From a virus: a stretch of 64,000 nt of DNA. The notes under the pieces were generated by a model. The model ran no database searches and was not told where the DNA came from. It saw nothing but the letters and a program-made list of their open reading frames with translations. Shown in pieces: positions 19,725 to 50,333 of the stretch (position 1 is its first letter; every line of letters starts with the position of its first letter). Both the position numbers and the translations under genes were made by a program. The DNA is taken from IMG/VR virus record IMGVR_UViG_3300027861_000010; one strand, written 5' to 3'.

Positions 19725-22700
19725 GTGGCAGGGATGGCCCCTACAACACAATGCCCGCAAGGCCCACAGGATCCGGTGTTCGACATCGTCAAGTGCGATG
19801 TTCCGTGCATCTTCCCGATCCCAGATGGCAATTGGATTGAAGATCCGCAGGTTCCTCCGGCACCGGATGACATCGCGGATTGTCCTGCTATCCCTGTGCC
19901 TTTACCGGAACCGGATCCACTCTGTCCTGAGATCACGTTTGATGGGAATCCTCAAGGTGGGCAGGCTCAAATTAGTGTTGTGCCGATTGGACAAGAACGG
20001 GCTTTCTTCCGTATCACTAAAGGTGAATGTTGCGATTACGACTTCGATCTTGAGATCGACTTTCCTTGTCCTGAACTGATTTCACTGGACTCGAATAGCC
20101 AATCAAACTCGAATTCAAACTCGAATTCGAGTAGTTACGCAGAGTGCGGTACGCCGCCGTCCGCTACGTTAGACATTACGAAGTCAGGCGACTGTACCTA
20201 CACCTTCGATCTTGAAGTCATATTTCCGTGCCCTCAAGACGGACCACAAGGCCCACCAGGCCCACAAGGCCCACAAGGCCCACAAGGACCGGGCGGACCA
20301 CAGGGACCACAGGGACCGGGCGGACCCCAAGGACCACAGGGACCGGGAGGCCCACAAGGGCCACAGGGACCAGAAGGTCCCCAAGGACCACAGGGACCAG
20401 AAGGTCCTCAGGGACCACAGGCACCAAAGAACCCAGACGGTCCACAAGGTCCCCAAGGACCACAAGGCCCGCAAGGACCGGGCGGACCACAGGGACCACA
20501 GGGTCCAGAAGGTCCCCAAGGGCCACAGGGTCCAGAAGGTCCCCAAGGGCCACAGGGACCAGAAGGTCCTCAGGGACCACAGGGACCAGAAGGTCCCCAA
20601 GGACCACAGGGACCACAGGGACCACAGGGTCCAGAAGGTCCCCAAGGGCCACAAGGGCCACAGGGACCGGACGGACCACAAGGAGCCGACGGACCACAGG
20701 GACCGGACGGACCTCAAGGGCCACAGGGACCAGAAGGTCCTCAGGGACCACAAGGGCCACAGGGACCAGAAGGTCCTCAGGGACCACAAGGGCCACAGGG
20801 TACAGAAGGACCACAGGGACCACAGGGTACAGAAGGTCCACAGGGACCACAGGGACCACAGGGTACAGAAGGTCCACAGGGACCACAGGGTACAGAAGGT
20901 CCACAGGGACCACAGGGTACAGAAGGTCCACAGGGACCACAGGGAGCCGACGGACCCCAGGGACCACAGGGAGCCGACGGACCACAGGGACCACAGGGAG
21001 CCGACGGACCACAGGGACCGGACGGACCACAAGGAGCCGACGGACCACAGGGACCGGACGGACCTCAAGGAGCTGACGGACCACAGGGACCGGACGGACC
21101 TCAAGGAGCTGACGGACCTCAAGGCCCCGATGGACCTCAAGGGGCCGATGGACCTCAAGGGGCTGACGGACCTCAAGGCCCCGATGGACCTCAAGGGGCT
21201 AAAGGCCCACAAGGAGCTGACGGCCCACAGGGACCGGACGGACCTCAAGGAGCTGACGGCCCGCAAGGGTCTAAAGGTCCACAAGGAGCTTCCGGACCTC
21301 AGGGAGCTTCCGGACCTCAAGGGTCTAAAGGCCCTCAAGGAACAGCTGGGCCTCAGGGAACAGCCGGACCTCAGGGTGACGCGGGACCTATAGGTCCTCA
21401 AGGCCCGATAGGTCCAGACGGTAATGCCGGACCACAAGGTCCGACCGGGGCAGCTGGCCCGACTGGTGACCCGGGACCTCAAGTTCAAGGAACAGGTGGT
21501 GGGACTGGACCTACAGGAGCAACTGGTCCAACAGGAGCAACAGGCCCAGACGGAGCCCAAGGTCCGGTTGGAGCAACAGGCCCAACAGGAGCAACTGGTC
21601 CAGTCGGAGCAACAGGCCCAGACGGAGCCCAAGGTCCGGTTGGAGCAACAGGCCCAGACGGAGCCCAAGGAGCAGCTGGGGCTGCTGGTGCCCAAGGTGC
21701 TGCCGGGGCTGCTGGTGCTCAAGGTGCTGCCGGGGCTGCTGGTGCTCAAGGTGCTGCCGGGGCTGCTGGTGCCCAAGGTGCTGCCGGGGCTGCTGGTGCC
21801 CAAGGTGCTGCCGGGGCAGCAGGTGCCCAAGGTGCTGCCGGGGCAGCAGGTGCCCAAGGACCAGCCGGAGCAACAGGTTCGCAAGGAGCAGCTGGGGCTG
21901 CTGGTGCTCAAGGTGCTGCCGGGGCAGCAGGTGCCCAAGGACCAGCCGGAGCAACAGGTTCGCAAGGAGCAGCTGGGGCTGCTGGTGCTCAAGGACCAGT
22001 GGGAGCAACAGGTTTTCAAGGCTTCACTGGTCCAACTGGATTTATAGGGTCACAAGGACCGGTTGGTCCAACGGGAGCACAAGGTTCGTCAGGTGCTCAG
22101 GGGCCATTCGGACCAGTCGGTCTTGACGGCACACAAGGCCCGACAGGAGAATCCGGCCCTGTTGGAGCAATAGGGGGTCAAGGACCAACTGGTCCAGCCG
22201 GAGCAACTGGGGCTCAAGGGGCTGCCGGAGCAGCAGGATCTCAAGGCTCTGCTGGAGCCCAAGGCTCTGCTGGAGCAATAGGGGGTCAAGGACCAACTGG
22301 TCCAGCCGGAGCAACTGGGGCTCAAGGGGCTGCCGGAGCAGCAGGATCTCAAGGCTCTGCTGGAGCCCAAGGCTCTGCTGGAGCAACAGGATCACAAGGT
22401 CCGATCGGAGCAACTGGTCCAACAGGAGACGCTGGAGCCGCGGGTGCTCAAGGGCCGACCGGTGCTCAGGGTGCTGACGGTGCAACTGGTCCAACAGGAG
22501 ACGCTGGAGACGCAGGTGCTCAAGGGGCAACCGGACCAACTGGTGGAACAGGGCCAACAGGATCTCAAGGGCCAACAGGATCTCAAGGTCCGACCGGAGC
22601 AACTGGTCCAACAGGAGACGCTGGAGACGCAGGTGCTCAAGGGGCAACCGGACCAACTGGTGGAACAGGGCCAACTGGTTCGCAGGGATCAATAGGTCCG

Positions 22701-24785
22701 ACAGGTCCGACAGGTGGTGCCGGTGTCCAGGGGCCAGTTGGAGTTCAAGGACCTGACGGAGCACCCGGTGCTCAAGGAGCAACAGGTGCTCAAGGTGCTG
22801 ACGGTACAACGGGAGCACAAGGCCCAACTGGTTCGCAGGGATCAACAGGTCCGACAGGTCCGACAGGCACCCCAGGTACGAACGGTTTACCGGGTTCACA
22901 AGGCCCGACCGGTGCTCAAGGTCCGTCAGGTGAGCAAGGTTTAGCTGGTGGTTGGTCGAGCTATTGGGAATTCGATAGTGCTACTGGAACCCCACCGGCC
23001 TCGACTCAACTTCGACTTAACAATGCAACGTTGAGTTCAGTTACTCGCATCTATGCGTCTGATACAAACATAGACTCAGTTGATGTTTCAGGAATGTTGA
23101 ACGCGATCGGTGTCGGCGACATCCTTCGCGTCTTCAATCCCTACGATTCCACAGAATTTGCTCACTACGAAATTGATTCCATTACGGATCAGACTTCGTA
23201 CTTCGACTTCACTGTCACTCATATCGAATCCAACGGTACGTTTACCGACGCGAATCCGATTGTGATGACGGTTTCTATGTTGGGTAATGTTGGTAACCAA
23301 GGGCCAGCCGGAATTACAGGCCCGACCGGTCCTGTTGGGGCTCAAGGAGCAGCTGGCCCAACCGGAGGAACCGGCCCCGCTGGTGTACAAGGCCCAGCAG
23401 GTACTCAAGGGAGTACGGGTCCGAGTGGTGCACAAGGTACAGTAGGTGTTCAAGGAGATACAGGTCCGAGCGGGGCACAGGGATCGGCTGGTGCCCAAGG
23501 ACCGGACGGAGCAACCGGCCCAACTGGAGGAACTGGCCCCGCGGGAGCAACCGGCCCAACTGGAGGAACTGGCCCCGTTGGTGCTCAAGGACCGGACGGA
23601 GGCACAGGACCAGCCGGACCAGCGGGCTCACAAGGACCAACCGGCCCAACTGGAGGAACTGGTCCCGTAGGCGGTCAAGGACCAACAGGCTCACAAGGTC
23701 CGACTGGTCCAACTGGAGGAACTGGCCCCGTTGGTGCTCAAGGACCGGACGGAGGCACAGGACCGGACGGAGGCACAGGACCAGCCGGACCAGCGGGCTC
23801 ACAAGGACCAACCGGCCCAACCGGCCCAACTGGAGGAACTGGTCCCGTAGGCGGTCAAGGACCAACTGGCTCGCAAGGGTCATCTGGTCCGGCTGGCGGG
23901 CAAGGCCCTACTGGTACTCAAGGACCGGACGGAGGCACAGGACCAGCCGGTACGCCAGGTCCTGCTGGTATTCAAGGTCCTGCTGGTGTTCAAGGTCCGG
24001 TAGGTGCAACAGGTTCGCAGGGGCCGACAGGTCCTACTGGAGGCGGCGGTCCAGCCGGTCCTCCTGGTGCTCAAGGCCCAACAGGAACCCAAGGTGCGAC
24101 AGGTTCGCAAGGACCAACCGGCCCAACTGGAGGAACTGGCCCAACTGGAGGAACTGGCCCCGCGGGAGCAACCGGCCCAACTGGAGGAACTGGCCCAACT
24201 GGAGGAACTGGCCCCGCGGGAGCTCAAGGCCCAACAGGAGCCGCCGGAGACGCCGGAGCCCAGGGACCAACCGGAACCGCGGGAGACACCGGCTCACAGG
24301 GTCCAACCGGAACCGCGGGAGACACCGGCTCACAGGGTCCAACTGGAGCTGCCGGGGATCAGGGACCAGAAGGTCCTCAGGGACCTCCTGGACCTCCAGG
24401 AGGAGCGGGACCGCTAACGCTCAGCGACGAGTTCAATCCTTATTTGGACTTCAGTGAGCCAGCGACTGATACATCCATGTTCCTTCGTTCTGGTGCTCAA
24501 GGAGCGACCGGTGCTCAAGGTTCGGTTGGACGCCAAGGCGGCTCCGGTAAACAAGGTTCGACAGGTAAACAAGGTCCGTCCGGTACTAACGCTACCGCCG
24601 AACGTGGTGGTTTACTTGCAGCTTCGATGCTGGATTCAGTGGCAGAGCCTGGTACGATATACTACTCTCTAACTTCGATGAGACTTGTATTCATGGATCG
24701 CAAAGGCAAGATCTTCTCGCTCACAGGTGATGTTCCGGACGGGTACGTTAAGTTCAAGGAGGACTCAGCTGGACCGCAAATTTAA
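19725..24785 (+). CDS. Giant collagen-like protein (probable tail fibre/whisker), 1686 aa
   Basis: Gly-X-Y runs at ~20241-22945 and ~23290-24410, separated by a ~115-aa globular insert. Cys/Pro-rich N-terminus and short C-terminal domain. Confidence 0.85.
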
Positions 24786-45287: not shown

Positions 45288-45646
45288 CTCTGGCTGACAA
45301 CAACCCAGAGTTCAACACGAAGATTCCGATCGCCGTCTCGGTAGGTCAGAACTTCATTCAGTTCGAGGCCGAAGGCTTCAATGCCTGCGGTGCTGCGGAC
45401 GAGCAACCGATTGGTGACGGCAACCGATCAATTGTTGCGTTCGAGATCTGGGAAGGCCGACTGCGTTTGCTGGTCTGGGCTGACATCAACCAGGAAGATC
45501 CGACGCATACCATCGACCTCGAAGAGGCTCGAACTTCCAACCGCGATTGCTATTACTGTGGCGGTAACTGTCATCGAGACCCTGAACACGCTTGTGACGG
45601 GTACCTCGGTGACATCGACAATCTTTACAAAAAGGAAAAGAAATGA
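45269..45646 (+). CDS. Hypothetical protein with Cys-rich tail
   Basis: CYYCGGNC...HACDG; stop overlaps the RAMP gene start. Confidence 0.6.
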   Translation: MRKFQVTLADNNPEFNTKIPIAVSVGQNFIQFEAEGFNACGAADEQPIGDGNRSIVAFEIWEGRLRLLVWADINQEDPTHTIDLEEARTSNRDCYYCGGNCHRDPEHACDGYLGDIDNLYKKEKK

Positions 45647-46296
45647 AAAACATCAAAATCCAAGTAACTGGACTGACTCCACTACTGATGAACGCCTTCA
45701 AAGGCGACGACAACAACGGATCATCCAAGTCCTCGGCTGCTAAGGATTATGGCACTCCGTTGCAGCAAGCACAGGAGAAGCTGTACATCGGAACGGATGG
45801 CGAAACGCTCGTTATCCCGCAACCGAACATCTTCAGTTGCATCATTGAAGGCGGCAAGTTCTTTAAGAACGGGAAGTCAAAGGTCACGACCATGAAGACC
45901 TCGCTGATTCCCTCGTGCGTTTTCTTCCACGACATCGAGTACCCGCTGGAGTACAACGGCGTAGTAGGGGTGTGGACGACGGCGTTACCGGATCCAAGCT
46001 GCTGGTCGGTTGATAGCAGGCCGATTCGCAACCCTTCAACAGGCGGTCGAATTATGCGTCACCGCCCGATCATTCACGATTGGCGATTCACGTTCGCCGT
46101 TACTCTCGATACCGATGAAATGGCGGTTAGTTTGTTCCGTGACATTGTTGACGCTGCGGGCAGTAAGATCGGACTCGGCGACTTCCGTCCTGGCTGCAAA
46201 GGCTCATTCGGTCGTTGGAAAGTCACCAGTTGGGTCGTTACTGATGAAGAAGAAGAACAAGAAGTAGACGAGGAGGAAGAACTCCTCGAAGTCTGA
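45643..46296 (+). CDS. Stand-alone RAMP / Cas7-like RNA-binding protein
   Basis: RAMP hallmarks: beta1 IKIQVTGLTPLLM, LVIPQPNIFSCIIEGG helix motif, thumb RPIRNPSTGGRIMRHRP, WRFTFAV strand and Gly-rich loop IGLGDFRPGCKGSFGRWKV. Acidic tail. No other cas gene seen in the window. Confidence 0.75.
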   Translation: MKNIKIQVTGLTPLLMNAFKGDDNNGSSKSSAAKDYGTPLQQAQEKLYIGTDGETLVIPQPNIFSCIIEGGKFFKNGKSKVTTMKTSLIPSCVFFHDIEYPLEYNGVVGVWTTALPDPSCWSVDSRPIRNPSTGGRIMRHRPIIHDWRFTFAVTLDTDEMAVSLFRDIVDAAGSKIGLGDFRPGCKGSFGRWKVTSWVVTDEEEEQEVDEEEELLEV

Positions 46297-46307
46297 TTCC
46301 ATTTCAT

Positions 46308-46920
46308 GGAGCGGCTGCGTGTCGCAAGGCTGTGCCAGCTTAGGTCGGGCTTGGCGGGGTCAGGCAGGGTGCGGCAAGGCAAGGTTCCCGTCGTCATCAG
46401 AAATGGTGGCGACGGGCTTCCCGTGGTGGGGCGAGCTTAGGTATGGCAATGCCAGGCAGGGCGGTGCAAGGTACGGCAAGGCAAGGTTCCCGTCGTCATC
46501 AGAAATGGTGGCGGTGGGCTTCTCACGGTCAGGCACTGCTAGGTCGGGCGGGGCGGGGCGTGGCACGTCCGGGTGTGGTTAGGCAAGGCAAGGTTCCCGT
46601 CGTCATCAGAAATGGTGGCGGCGGGCTTTTACGCGGCGAGGCGAGGCGTGGCCGGGCGAGGCATGGCCGGGAGCGGCAATGCAGGGTGCGGCAAGGCAAG
46701 GTTCCCGTCGTCATCAGAAATGGTGGCGGCGGGCTTCTCAGGGCGAGGCGGGGCGACGCTCGGCATGGCTATGCCTGGCCGTGCTCGGCGTGGCTAGGAG
46801 CGGCAAGGCAAGGTTCCCGTCGTCATCAGAAATGGTGGCGGCGGGCTTTTACGCGGCGAGGCGAGGCCATGCAAGGCAGGGCGATGCAAGGTACGGCATG
46901 GAGTGGCGAGGTTTTTATTT
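46308..46920 (+). repeat. Guide-RNA-like array: five 30-nt hairpin repeats separated by GGY-NN pentamer tracts
   Basis: Hairpin CCCGTCGTCATC-AGAAAT-GGTGGCGRYGGG at 46387, 46489, 46596, 46704 and 46816, each preceded by GGCAAGGCAAGGTT. Periods are 102/107/108/112. Six tracts of 15, 12, 13, 13, 14 and 11 pentamers; ends in GGTTTTTATTT. Confidence 0.92.
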
Positions 46921-46951
46921 ACACAGGAGAAAAAAGAATGGAGGAACAAAG

Positions 46952-47386
46952 ATGTCAACGTCAAGACACCTGATTGATGCGGCGGAGTTGTTTGTGTCGA
47001 TGCCGGTTACGGTGTTGGCTCAAGCCGTCGAAGCACTGGGGTACGAGAACCCGCAGTACGAGATGTCGCGTGTGCTTTCACTTCAGCAGGCACTGAAGCA
47101 GGACTTCGAGAGTCGGAACAACATGGCTCCCGACCTGGCCGAAGCCCTCTACAACCTGGCTGACGAAGCTTACGCCAACGAAGACGACATGCAGACGAAC
47201 GTCGATCCACTTGAGATGCCGTTCGACATGTCCGAAGCAGACGAAGGTACCTGGGCTCATGCGTGGGTTTGGGTGCCTAACGATGAACTCGAAAAGGAGG
47301 TCTGGCGGATTCAGGAGGAACGGCGACAACAGAAACTTCGAGAGAAGGAGAAACCTAGTGGCTATAGACTGGGACGACGAATTTGA
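46952..47386 (+). CDS. Hypothetical protein
   Basis: ATG 46952 after GGAGGA; the upstream extension in the ORF track is array sequence. Confidence 0.65.
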   Translation: MSTSRHLIDAAELFVSMPVTVLAQAVEALGYENPQYEMSRVLSLQQALKQDFESRNNMAPDLAEALYNLADEAYANEDDMQTNVDPLEMPFDMSEADEGTWAHAWVWVPNDELEKEVWRIQEERRQQKLREKEKPSGYRLGRRI

Positions 47387-49235: not shown

Positions 49236-49636
49236 TGGGTGCTGACTTCATGTTTGCGGTTTCACCGCAGCCGTCACTGGAGGACGACAACCGAAAGAAA
49301 GCAGTGAAAGAACTGCTTCAACAAATCTCGTACGAAGATCTGCTTGATGTTGAAGAGAACTATGGTGGTTTTGATGACACCAGTTCTGCCGAGGCAATGA
49401 GAAAGGAGTTGTACGACACCATTGAGAAAGTTTGCGATCTGGATTCTCGCGAATCGTCCTGCATCCAATTGGACGGTATGGACTGGATGGGCGTCATCAC
49501 TGGAGGCATGAGTTGGGGTGATGTGCCCACGGACTGCTTTGAAACTATTGCAACCATTGGAAGGTTCGAGCCCGTCTGGGACCTTCTCAAACATTTCGCC
49601 CAGGAGGATCTTCGTGCCACTAAGACCGGGAAATAA
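49235..49636 (+). CDS. Hypothetical protein
   Basis: MGADF...ITGGMSWGDVP; coupled. Confidence 0.65.
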   Translation: MGADFMFAVSPQPSLEDDNRKKAVKELLQQISYEDLLDVEENYGGFDDTSSAEAMRKELYDTIEKVCDLDSRESSCIQLDGMDWMGVITGGMSWGDVPTDCFETIATIGRFEPVWDLLKHFAQEDLRATKTGK

Positions 49637-50333
49637 CAAGCTCGGACTTCTTGTGCACCAATGGTCCATACCATCCGGCTTGCGGCACATCTGCGTCGGG
49701 GCATCAGAAATCTGTCTGATGCTTTGCTACGCCATGCGGCATCACTACTGTCGTGACAGTGTGAAGGATGCACTGCAAGCTAATTACAAAGAGTCACTGC
49801 GAAAGGATTTCGTGGCGATCATGTGTGGATGGATCCGATCGTTATTTGCACGAGTAGTTCGAGTCCACGCCAGTGGAGAGTTCTACAGTGAAGAGTATGT
49901 CAGGAAGTGGATCAGAATAGTAAAGCAGAACCCACGCATTGTGTTCTACGCTTACACTCGAAGCTGGTCTGATCCTGACATTTACCTAGCCCTCAAAGAG
50001 TTGGCCAAGCTGCCAAACTTCATCATGTGGTGGAGCTGTGACCGGGCAACCGGTGCTCCGCCGCGGAACCGTGGGATACGTCGAGCGTATCTCATGATCT
50101 CGGACGAAGACATTCCGAAGTTCAAGGTAGATCTTGTCTTCAGGAACAAACCGAAAACCGTCATGAAGTGGGTCAAAGGTGCTTTAGTTTGTCCGCCTGA
50201 AAACGGAGTGACTGAGACTACCTGCAGTTTGTGTCAGCTTTGCTTCAAACGGGACGCGATTCCCGAAAGGAAGGAAGATGTCCAAACAACTCGAGAAACA
50301 CGGGATCGAAGTCGACGCTTACCGGTCGCCTGA
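49614..50333 (+). CDS. Gp88-like (radical-SAM-like) phage protein
   Basis: GTG 49614 after AGGAGG; GNNKLG, C...C...CYA, RVHASGEF, FYAYTRSW. Confidence 0.7.
   Translation: MPLRPGNNKLGLLVHQWSIPSGLRHICVGASEICLMLCYAMRHHYCRDSVKDALQANYKESLRKDFVAIMCGWIRSLFARVVRVHASGEFYSEEYVRKWIRIVKQNPRIVFYAYTRSWSDPDIYLALKELAKLPNFIMWWSCDRATGAPPRNRGIRRAYLMISDEDIPKFKVDLVFRNKPKTVMKWVKGALVCPPENGVTETTCSLCQLCFKRDAIPERKEDVQTTRETRDRSRRLPVA

What the first reader, a model, noticed from the sequence alone, without database searches (positions are those of the whole stretch)
46308..46914. Information sits only in every 4th-5th base: a non-contiguous dinucleotide code
The array parses into 78 in-register pentamers. 59 start with GGY and the other 19 are single-base variants (TGC x9, GGA x4, CGY x3, GCT x2, GTC x1). 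NN strings, excluding the invariant terminal AA-AA: T0 GC TG GT AA TG CA TA CG TT GG CA AG GC; T1 GG GA TA AT AA CA AG GG AA AC; T2 CA AC TA CG GG GG GT AC CG GT TA; T3 GA GA GT CG GA AT CG GC AA AG GC; T4 GA GG GA TC AT TA CT CG TC GT TA GC; T5 GA GA CA AA AG GA AA AC AT GT GA. Each tract holds 20-26 informative bases, comparable to a CRISPR spacer. If the target is read as NN-skip1-NN, the period is 3, so recognition could ignore codon wobble positions and resist synonymous escape (inference).
Basis: partly seen in the sequence, partly recalled or inferred. Interest (0 to 1): 0.9.

Follow-up and report, generated by a model that had tools for sequence, protein, structure and literature searches.

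The report
Phage VIPR guide-RNA array (known class)
This stretch is a guide-RNA array of a VIPR system, a CRISPR-like phage weapon first described in 2026 preprints, sitting next to its Cas7-like protein gene in a marine phage; it is a genuine new example of a known class, and its targets remain unidentified.

Summary

In those systems a Vipr RAMP protein coats GGY/NN repeat RNAs, and the NN bases pair with DNA while skipping every third base.

The locus passes the membership tests I could run:
- **Protein:** the gene directly upstream (45643-46296) is a homologue of SUSP1 Vipr. It has a Cas7 fold and keeps the GGY-binding residues.
- **Tail:** each tract ends in a conserved handle and a 13-bp hairpin that pairs only on the + strand.
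- **Relatives:** 58 of 80 IMG/VR loci with related proteins carry same-strand pentamer arrays.
- **Variability:** among close relatives, triplets stay 72% identical while NN falls to 31%.

Not shown here are expression, processing and targets. Gapped-pattern scans gave one perfect 20/20 match, in a head-completion gene of a T4-like marine phage, but it is compatible with chance. I found no conserved accessory (vap) gene.

This scan has already reported VIPR-type arrays in at least 245 other genomes. Verdict: real, correctly read, a new member of a known kind.

The parts
45643..46296 (+). vipr gene: 217-aa stand-alone Cas7-like RAMP protein with an acidic C-terminal helix (residues ~200-217)
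   Evidence: phmmer hit to PDB 36pp_D 'SUSP1 Vipr protein', E 1.1e-5. tblastn to phage SUSP1: 24.9% identity over 89% of the query, E 3e-6. hhalign of the family profile against SUSP1 Vipr: probability 98.3%, E 1.6e-14, 169 columns. AF2 model pLDDT 90.6. Foldseek and VIA top hits are all Cas7-family proteins (Csm3 and the like), Z 11.7. R141, D180 and R182 are invariant and F181 nearly so; they correspond to SUSP1 R138, D177, R179 and W178.
46297..46307 (+). short leader between the vipr stop codon and the first tract, conserved in relatives L084 and L086
   Evidence: Sequence read.
46308..46382 (+). vrRNA 1 repeat tract (T0): 13 variable pentamers plus the invariant GGCAA-GGCAA handle. The 5' half has several degenerate triplets.
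   Evidence: The orthologous tract in L084 keeps NN 27/30 while triplets are 35/45.
46383..46419 (+). tail 1: GGTT, then a 13-bp stem (46387-46399 with 46404-46416) closed by a GAAA tetraloop, then CTT
   Evidence: Fold of the + strand z -8.3, against +1.6 for the - strand. Nine copies are 100% paired, and the three variable pairs change only G-U to A-U or G-C to G-U.
46425..46484 (+). vrRNA 2 tract (T1): 10 variable pentamers plus handle
46485..46521 (+). tail 2 (hairpin copy with a G-C to G-U change)
46527..46591 (+). vrRNA 3 tract (T2): 11 variable pentamers plus handle
46592..46628 (+). tail 3
46635..46699 (+). vrRNA 4 tract (T3): 11 variable pentamers plus handle
46700..46736 (+). tail 4
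46742..46811 (+). vrRNA 5 tract (T4): 12 variable pentamers plus handle
46812..46848 (+). tail 5
46855..46919 (+). T5: 11 pentamers with no handle and no hairpin, running into a T-rich stretch. It is probably a truncated unit. Its start copies the start of T3, and its middle is a paralogue of part of T1.
   Evidence: In relative L085 the last tract instead ends with the handle and a classic terminator hairpin.

Best explanation
The region is the guide-RNA (vrRNA) array of a VIPR system carried by an uncultured marine phage.

Shown here:
- A stand-alone Cas7-like protein gene homologous to SUSP1 Vipr lies directly upstream on the same strand.
- Five units follow, each made of 10-13 variable GGY-NN pentamers, an invariant GGCAA-GGCAA handle and a 13-bp GAAA-tetraloop hairpin that pairs only in the + strand RNA.
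- A sixth, truncated tract ends the array.

Inferred from the published homologous systems:
- The array is transcribed, probably with vipr, and cut into roughly 100-nt vrRNAs.
- One Vipr protomer binds each pentamer. It flips out and holds G1, G2 and Y3 through the thumb arginine and the D-aromatic-R glycine loop, both conserved here.
- The NN pairs are thereby presented. The filament binds double-stranded DNA whose sequence reads NN-x-NN-x, skipping one base per unit, forms an R-loop triplex and blocks transcription of a competing phage, satellite or prophage gene.

My own inference: the hairpin, or in a relative a terminator, caps and protects the 3' end in place of the SUSP1 pseudoknot.

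Each guide carries 20-26 specifying bases. New guides seem to arise by duplication of units followed by changes concentrated in NN.
For: - **Protein homology:** PDB 36pp_D 'SUSP1 Vipr protein', E 1.1e-5. tblastn to SUSP1 covers 89% of the query, E 3e-6. Profile comparison gives probability 98.3%, E 1.6e-14.
- **Fold:** pLDDT 90.6. Every top structural match is a Cas7-family RAMP, Z up to 11.7 over residues 1-208.
- **Residues:** SUSP1 R138, D177, W178 and R179, which hold the GGY bases, align to R141, D180, F181 and R182, invariant or nearly so in 119 relatives. The non-target-strand clamps K82, G87 and K88 align to K72, G77 and K78.
- **RNA:** 59 of 78 pentamers are GGY in register, against 13.2 in shuffles. 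Tract lengths of 12-15 repeats fall within the published 9-16.
- **Tail:** it folds only on the + strand, and all substitutions in nine copies keep pairing.
- **Family association:** 58 of 80 IMG/VR loci with a related protein carry arrays of at least 6 in-register GGYNN on the vipr strand, mostly abutting the gene. Only 2 carry one on the other strand.
- **Array statistics in relatives:** 173 distinct arrays, median 11 repeats, NN entropy 3.84 of 4 bits.
- **Close relatives (Vipr 84-87% identical):** they have the same tail and handle but different guides. Triplet identity is 72% against 31% for NN.
- **One orthologous guide:** window T0 and L084 conserve NN 27/30 while triplets drift to 35/45.
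- **No self-target:** no site in the window scores above 73%, the same as shuffled guides. The preprint reports the same for its systems.
Against: - Nothing here shows transcription, processing or binding. No RNA data set holds the region.
- No convincing target was found for any guide.
- No conserved accessory (vap) gene accompanies vipr in this lineage, whereas published loci 'typically' have one.
- The tail is a plain hairpin, not the pseudoknot of the SUSP1 clade.
- About a quarter of the pentamers (19 of 78) have imperfect triplets, and the published work found that perturbing GGY abolishes silencing.
- T5 lacks handle and tail.
- The excess NN conservation in the T0 orthologue pair is not statistically significant on its own: 3 of 30 against 10 of 45 differences, roughly p 0.2 by my own estimate.
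Confidence: 0.88

Rival explanations
1. A protein-sponge or scaffold RNA. The GGY triplets bind an oligomeric RNA-binding protein, as the GAG/UAG repeats bind TRAP, and the NN bases are mere spacers that specify nothing.
For: The layout of a triplet plus a 2-nt spacer repeated 11-15 times resembles the TRAP binding site (my own knowledge). This was my first reading, before I found the literature. No target was found for any guide.
Against: The adjacent protein is a Vipr homologue, not a TRAP-like ring. In the homologous system NN changes reprogram the target. NN is near maximal entropy between guides yet 90% conserved in the one orthologous guide pair, where triplets drift. Pure spacers would not behave so.
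Confidence: 0.04
2. A VIPR-type array that no longer works as a weapon. It could be decaying, or it could be a set of decoy guides that redirect a rival phage's Vipr, as published for satellite-encoded solo vrRNAs.
For: 19 of 78 triplets are degenerate and T5 is truncated. No targets were found. A population contig lacks three units. Decoy and orphan vrRNAs are documented.
Against: The array sits next to an intact vipr with all key residues. The tails are near identical and pairing-preserving in nine copies across three phages, and the handle is conserved clade-wide, which argues for purifying selection. Internal degeneracy of vrRNAs is described as common in working systems.
Confidence: 0.05
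3. A DNA-level element on the G-rich strand, such as protein-binding iterons, a packaging or replication site, or a run of two-tier G-quadruplexes.
For: Strong GC skew of 0.18 in this 2-kb bin. GG every 5 nt fits a (GGN3)n quadruplex motif (my own knowledge).
Against: The hairpin contains four G-U pairs and pairs only as + strand RNA. In relatives the arrays are strand-locked to vipr, 58 loci against 2. The conserved pyrimidine after GG is unexplained by quadruplexes.
Confidence: 0.02
4. Protein-coding sequence: the mechanical ORFs 46443-46973 or 46679-47386 would encode a repeat protein.
For: Open frames exist across the array.
Against: A 5-nt period is incompatible with a conserved reading frame. 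Unit lengths of 102-112 nt shift frame between units. The downstream gene has its own ribosome-binding site and an ATG at 46952. G-rich sequence is poor in stop codons by composition.
Confidence: 0.01

Closest known systems
Type II VIPR system of Escherichia phage SUSP1 (Vipr + vap1 + vrRNAs; bioRxiv 10.64898/2026.04.26.720920 and .720927; PDB 36pp)
   Same: Both are phage-borne and have a lone Cas7-like Vipr with the same thumb arginine and D-aromatic-R glycine loop. Both have GGY-NN pentamer tracts of about 12 repeats followed by an invariant structured 3' tail. Several vrRNAs lie in tandem on the vipr strand.
   Different: - Only about 25% protein identity.
- GGC-dominated rather than GGT-dominated triplets.
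- The tail is a 13-bp GAAA hairpin preceded by an invariant two-pentamer handle, not a pseudoknot.
- The array follows vipr directly, with no vap gene between and no upstream solo vrRNA.
- The protein has an extra acidic C-terminal helix.
- The host is marine and unknown.
Other published VIPR array architectures (staggered arrays, hammerhead-interspersed arrays, single-vrRNA loci; seven types)
   Same: Same repeat code and the same protein family. Relatives of this protein in IMG/VR show many layouts, including closely packed multi-tract arrays and single tracts.
   Different: Rfam found no hammerhead in the window or in 13 related loci. I could not assign the locus to one of the seven types, because the type tables and figures are not held as text.
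Class 1 CRISPR-Cas backbone (Cas7/Csm3 filament on crRNA)
   Same: Same RAMP fold, Z 11.7 to Csm3. One protomer binds per fixed RNA step, with thumb-driven base flipping at regular intervals.
   Different: There is no CRISPR repeat-spacer array, no other cas genes and no adaptation module. The step is 5 nt with three bases flipped out, not 6 nt with one. The guide is non-contiguous.
TRAP-trp leader RNA (11 GAG/UAG triplets with 2-3 nt spacers)
   Same: Triplet-plus-spacer periodicity bound by a protein oligomer, one subunit per repeat (my own knowledge).
   Different: The protein fold is unrelated. In TRAP the spacers carry no information and no second nucleic acid is recognised.

Membership tests
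VIPR system | A stand-alone Vipr protein (minimal RAMP with RRM core, glycine-rich loop and thumb) encoded next to the repeat RNA | tested here: met
   Sequence homology to SUSP1 Vipr. Cas7 fold, Z 11.7 and Foldseek probability 1.0. The gene ends 11 nt before the array, on the same strand.
VIPR system | Residues that hold the flipped GGY bases (SUSP1 R138, D177, W178, R179, H17) | tested here: met
   They align to R141, D180, F181 and R182, invariant or nearly invariant in 119 relatives, and to N17 in place of H17. The pyrimidine-pocket residues E71 and M72 are not conserved: they align to P61 and N62.
VIPR system | vrRNA tract of 9-16 tandem YNNGG units with conserved GGY and hypervariable NN | tested here: met
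   12-15 units per tract. Triplet entropy is 0.27-0.98 bits against 1.8-1.9 for NN. Across related phages, triplet identity is 72% against 31% for NN.
VIPR system | Invariant, structured 3' tail capping each tract | tested here: met
   Five near-identical 37-nt tails, each a 13-bp hairpin with a GNRA loop. All substitutions keep pairing. The form differs from the SUSP1 pseudoknot.
VIPR system | Arrays co-occur with vipr on the same strand across the family | tested here: met
   58 of 80 related IMG/VR loci, against 2 on the opposite strand.
VIPR system | Accessory vap gene in the locus ('typically', not always, per the preprint) | tested here: inconclusive
   Flanking ORFs have no Pfam or PHROG function. 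None stays next to vipr in close relatives, and no neighbour family is found in more than 19 of 87 loci. A fast-evolving or unrecognised vap is not excluded.
VIPR system | Viral or mobile-element context | tested here: met
   Genes are almost all on one strand. Hits include a baseplate wedge PHROG and Pfam GP88. Relatives lie on IMG/VR viral contigs. The stretch is held by seawater metagenomes of 22 studies.
VIPR system | Guides match natural targets under the 1-nt skip rule and not their own genome | tested here: inconclusive
   There is no self-target in the 64-kb window. Exact scans gave one 20/20 match for T1 and chance-level seeds for T0. The other guides gave none.
VIPR system | vrRNAs are expressed as ~100-nt RNAs and co-purify with Vipr | not testable with these tools
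   No RNA data could be examined for this stretch, so expression and co-purification remain untested.
CRISPR-Cas | Array of identical repeats separating unique contiguous spacers, with cas operon and adaptation genes | tested here: not met
   The 'spacers' are pentamer tracts. The only Cas-like gene is the lone RAMP, and the neighbours have no Cas families.
Catalogued RNA families (Rfam 15) | Match at or above a family's gathering score | tested here: not met
   The best match is Cupriavidus-1 at 22 bits against a 45.5-bit cut-off, E 2. Nothing reached gathering score in the window.

The most novel reading that the evidence does not exclude
This marine lineage would be a distinct, vap-less VIPR subtype. 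Its vrRNAs would end in a clade-wide GGCAA-GGCAA handle plus a simple GNRA hairpin (or a terminator) instead of a pseudoknot. Vipr would carry an acidic C-terminal helix. The two-part vipr-array cassette would move between positions in large phage genomes. One guide (T1) would truly silence the head-completion gene of co-occurring T4-like marine myoviruses, which would be the first natural VIPR target outside enterobacterial, Pseudomonas and defence-island systems.
Probability: 0.12. Interest if true: 0.5.

Novelty: new member of a known kind. Interest (0 to 1): 0.3.

Why it matters
VIPR is a months-old discovery, so each well-documented natural locus widens the picture of how these systems vary. 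This locus shows three things:
- The protein and the array can form a self-sufficient two-part cassette in an abundant marine phage.
- A plain hairpin and a fixed two-pentamer handle can replace the pseudoknot tail.
- Relatives swap guides while keeping scaffold and tail.

It does not change the concept.

Tried and rejected
- **My first reading was wrong.** I took the array for a TRAP-like protein sponge with meaningless spacers and gave the code under 3%. I dropped this after the literature search and the protein match.
- **Rfam.** Nothing significant. No hammerhead in the window or in 13 related loci.
- **BLAST of the array and of 7 kb around it against GenBank phages.** No useful match.
- **Exact tail/handle pattern and the single-protein search in IMG/VR.** Nothing.
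- **No whole genome is held for this window**.
- **Single-sequence AF2 model.** Useless at pLDDT 38. It was redone with an alignment.
- **Target scans in IMG/VR (1-nt skip, tail-proximal nine NN, 18 specified bases).**
  - T0, T2, T3 and T4 gave no hit.
  - T1 gave two homologous contigs that extend to 20/20. The match lies in a phrog_218 head-closure gene of a 36% GC T4-like myovirus. Its nearest cultured relatives are Methylophilales phage Melnitz and cyanophages.
  - I rate this hit as probably chance. The pattern is A-rich. I estimate roughly 0.1-0.5 such matches by chance, assuming a collection size that I do not know. The skipped base falls on codon position 1, not wobble. The handle does not match (2 of 4). 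No other guide hits those contigs.
- **Genome-contig scans.** T4 with 11 NN gave no hit. T0 with ten NN gave 4 hits where about 4 were expected. None extends, and they lie in ordinary chromosomal genes.
- **Register test with skip 0-3 and shuffled guides.** I could run it only on 0.6 Mb of local loci. It shows nothing beyond the preselected hits.
- **Sequencing runs.** No RNA holder is listed.
- **Laid contigs.** They break inside the array. The 318-nt skip in one contig may be a real shorter array or an assembly collapse.
- **Supplementary tables of the preprint.** Not held, so no VIPR type was assigned.
- **Complex prediction.** Not used, because a protein-only test would not address an RNA-dependent filament.

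Full report
**What is in the sequence**

Between the stop codon of a 217-aa ORF (45643-46296, + strand) and the ribosome-binding site of the next gene (ATG at 46952) lies a 650-nt G-rich stretch.

It holds five copies of a 37-nt element, starting at 46383, 46485, 46592, 46700 and 46812. These separate six tracts that parse, without internal frame slips, into 78 pentamers.

In-register GGY occurs 59 times, against 13.2 ± 1.9 (maximum 22) in 2000 shuffles of the tracts. A nine-unit GGYNN pattern occurs once in the window and never in shuffles. Nothing similar exists elsewhere in the 64 kb.

Positions 1-3 of the pentamer carry 0.74, 0.27 and 0.98 bits of entropy. Positions 4-5 carry 1.87 and 1.81.

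Each of the first five tracts ends with the same two pentamers, GGCAA twice. The sixth tract (T5) does not.

**The separator is an RNA hairpin on the + strand**

The 37-nt element folds into a 13-bp stem closed by a GAAA tetraloop. Four of the pairs are G-U, so the structure exists only in the + strand transcript. The region folds with z = -8.3 on the + strand and +1.6 on the - strand.

I aligned nine copies: five from the window, three from L085 and one from L084. All 104 pair cells are standard pairs. The three pairs that vary change only between U-G and U-A or between G-C and G-U, and one loop is GAGA, still GNRA. No pair changes on both sides, so this is conservation with pairing-compatible drift, not full covariation.

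**Finding the literature**

My first reading was a TRAP-like protein-binding RNA with meaningless spacers, and I gave the code reading very low odds. A title in the scan's own notes used the word 'VIPR-like', so I searched the paper library.

Three 2026 preprints from one laboratory describe Viral Interference Programmable Repeat systems:
- A stand-alone RAMP protein, Vipr, binds vrRNAs made of 9-16 YNNGG repeats followed by an invariant structured 3' tail.
- One protomer binds each repeat and flips out G1, G2 and Y3.
[quoted passage not shown] - The skipped base usually falls on codon wobble, which blocks escape by synonymous mutation.

**Membership tests**

*Protein.*
- By sequence, the upstream ORF matches PDB chain 36pp_D, 'SUSP1 Vipr protein', at E 1.1e-5.
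- It matches the SUSP1 genome over 89% of its length, 24.9% identity, E 3e-6.
- A profile of 119 relatives aligns to SUSP1 Vipr with hhalign probability 98.3%, E 1.6e-14, over 169 columns.
- An AlphaFold model built with that alignment has pLDDT 90.6.
- Its structural neighbours are exclusively Cas7-family RAMPs, with Csm3 best: Foldseek E 5e-6, VIA Z 11.7 over residues 1-208.

*Residues that hold the GGY bases.* The SUSP1 residues are thumb R138 and glycine loop D177, W178 and R179. They align to R141, D180, F181 and R182. R141, D180 and R182 are invariant, and F181 is nearly invariant, in the 119 relatives. H17 aligns to N17. The strand clamps K82, G87 and K88 align to K72, G77 and K78. The pyrimidine-pocket residues E71 and M72 are replaced by P61 and N62, yet the arrays still show C or T at position 3.

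*Family-wide association.* A scan of IMG/VR with the family alignment returned 80 loci at 40-52% protein identity. Arrays of at least six in-register GGYNN units occur on the vipr strand in 58 of them, mostly abutting the gene, and on the opposite strand in only 2. The 173 distinct arrays have a median of 11 repeats and an NN entropy of 3.84 of 4 bits. Half of them end with GCAAGG, so the terminal handle is a clade-wide feature and not part of the variable guide.

*Close relatives.* The metagenome scan found three phages with 84-87% identical Vipr.
- L085 carries a homologous array with the same hairpin and handle but different guides. Its last vrRNA ends with the handle and a classic terminator hairpin in place of the usual tail. 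This supports the order 'tract, then 3' cap'.
- Anchoring tracts at their 3' ends, mean triplet identity is 72% and mean NN identity 31%, close to random.
- The first tract of L084 is the orthologue of window T0. It keeps NN at 27/30 while triplets are 35/45. That is the direction expected if NN is what selection reads, but by my estimate (p about 0.2) it is not significant alone.
- Within the window, T1 and T5 share a paralogous block with triplets at 87% and NN at 55%. Tandem Repeats Finder reports a 215-nt period across the array. Both fit growth by unit duplication followed by NN change.

**What differs from the published exemplar**
- The tail is a plain hairpin, not a pseudoknot.
- The array follows vipr directly.
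- No accessory gene is evident. The flanking ORFs have no recognisable function.
- In L085 and L086 the homologues of the window's upstream genes lie elsewhere relative to vipr, so vipr plus array behaves as a movable two-part cassette.
- In the wider clade the commonest neighbours are replication-module genes, in at most 19 of 87 loci.
- The window's subclade has an acidic C-terminal helix that SUSP1 Vipr lacks.
- T5 has no handle or hairpin and is probably a truncated unit.

I could not assign one of the seven published types, because the tables are not held.

**Targets**

No guide matches the window itself above 73% in any register, the same as shuffled guides. The preprint likewise reports no self-targeting.

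Only exact-match, capped scans were available.

*IMG/VR.* The nine tail-proximal NN of T0, T2, T3 and T4 gave nothing. T1 hit two homologous contigs and extends to all ten NN, 20/20. The site lies in a head-closure gene (phrog_218) of a 36% GC T4-like marine myovirus. Its nearest cultured relatives are Methylophilales phage Melnitz and cyanophages.

I rate this as probably chance:
- The pattern is A-rich. I estimate roughly 0.1-0.5 such matches by chance, but this assumes a collection size that I do not know.
- The skipped base is codon position 1, not wobble.
- The handle does not match.
- No other guide hits those contigs.

*Prokaryote genome collection.* T4 gave nothing. A ten-NN T0 pattern gave four hits where about four were expected, and none extends.

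*Register test.* A test with skip 0-3 and shuffled guides on 0.6 Mb of local loci shows nothing beyond the preselected hits.

So the target question stays open.

**Occurrence**

The stretch is held by seawater and marine metagenomes of 22 studies. Assembled contigs break inside the array. One contig joins 46535 to 46854, skipping 318 nt, which is either a shorter natural array or an assembly collapse.

**Verdict**

The element is a new member of the VIPR class, not a new kind of system. This scan has already reported VIPR-type arrays in at least 245 other genomes.

Noticed in passing
window 20001-24000 (inside ORF 19725-24785, 1686 aa): A sharp composition anomaly: GC 0.60-0.64 against about 0.51 elsewhere, and AT skew up to 0.42. 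It is probably a low-complexity or repeat-rich part of a very large structural protein.
   Followed up: no
window 45643-46920 compared with L085:3501-7281 and L086:301-980: Vipr plus array sits at different positions relative to homologues of the same neighbouring genes in three related phages. The two-part cassette seems to move as a unit.
   Followed up: partly
window 46535-46854: One seawater-metagenome contig joins these two points and skips 318 nt (three units). This is either an array length variant in the population or a repeat collapse in assembly. Another run has variants at 46367 (an NN base) and 46370 (GGT to GGA).
   Followed up: partly
window 46243-46293 (protein residues ~200-217): The Vipr of this subclade ends in a strongly acidic helix (runs of E and D). 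It is absent from SUSP1 Vipr and from most of the wider family. It may mimic nucleic acid or act in auto-inhibition.
   Followed up: no
window 46404-46424, 46506-46526, 46721-46741: The 3' arm of the hairpin and the short linker are themselves in pentamer register with the tract that follows in three of five units. The hairpin may have evolved out of repeat sequence, or units may overlap as in published 'staggered' arrays.
   Followed up: no
window 46338-46342 and 46435-46439; also L084 and L085 tracts: An irregular pentamer, GCTTA, recurs at an internal position in several tracts of the window and of two relatives. Its meaning is unknown. It could be a relic of duplication or a functional mark.
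   Followed up: no
L024, L034, L046, L047, L064 (IMG/VR relatives): Some related phages carry very large arrays, with 12-14 tracts in a row, some only 9-13 nt apart. One has a single uninterrupted run of 46 pentamers. No Rfam ribozyme was found between the tracts.
   Followed up: partly
window 49518-50333: An ORF with a clear Pfam GP88 domain (E 5.6e-27) and a phrog_1392 hit. It is one of the few recognisable genes near the locus.
   Followed up: no
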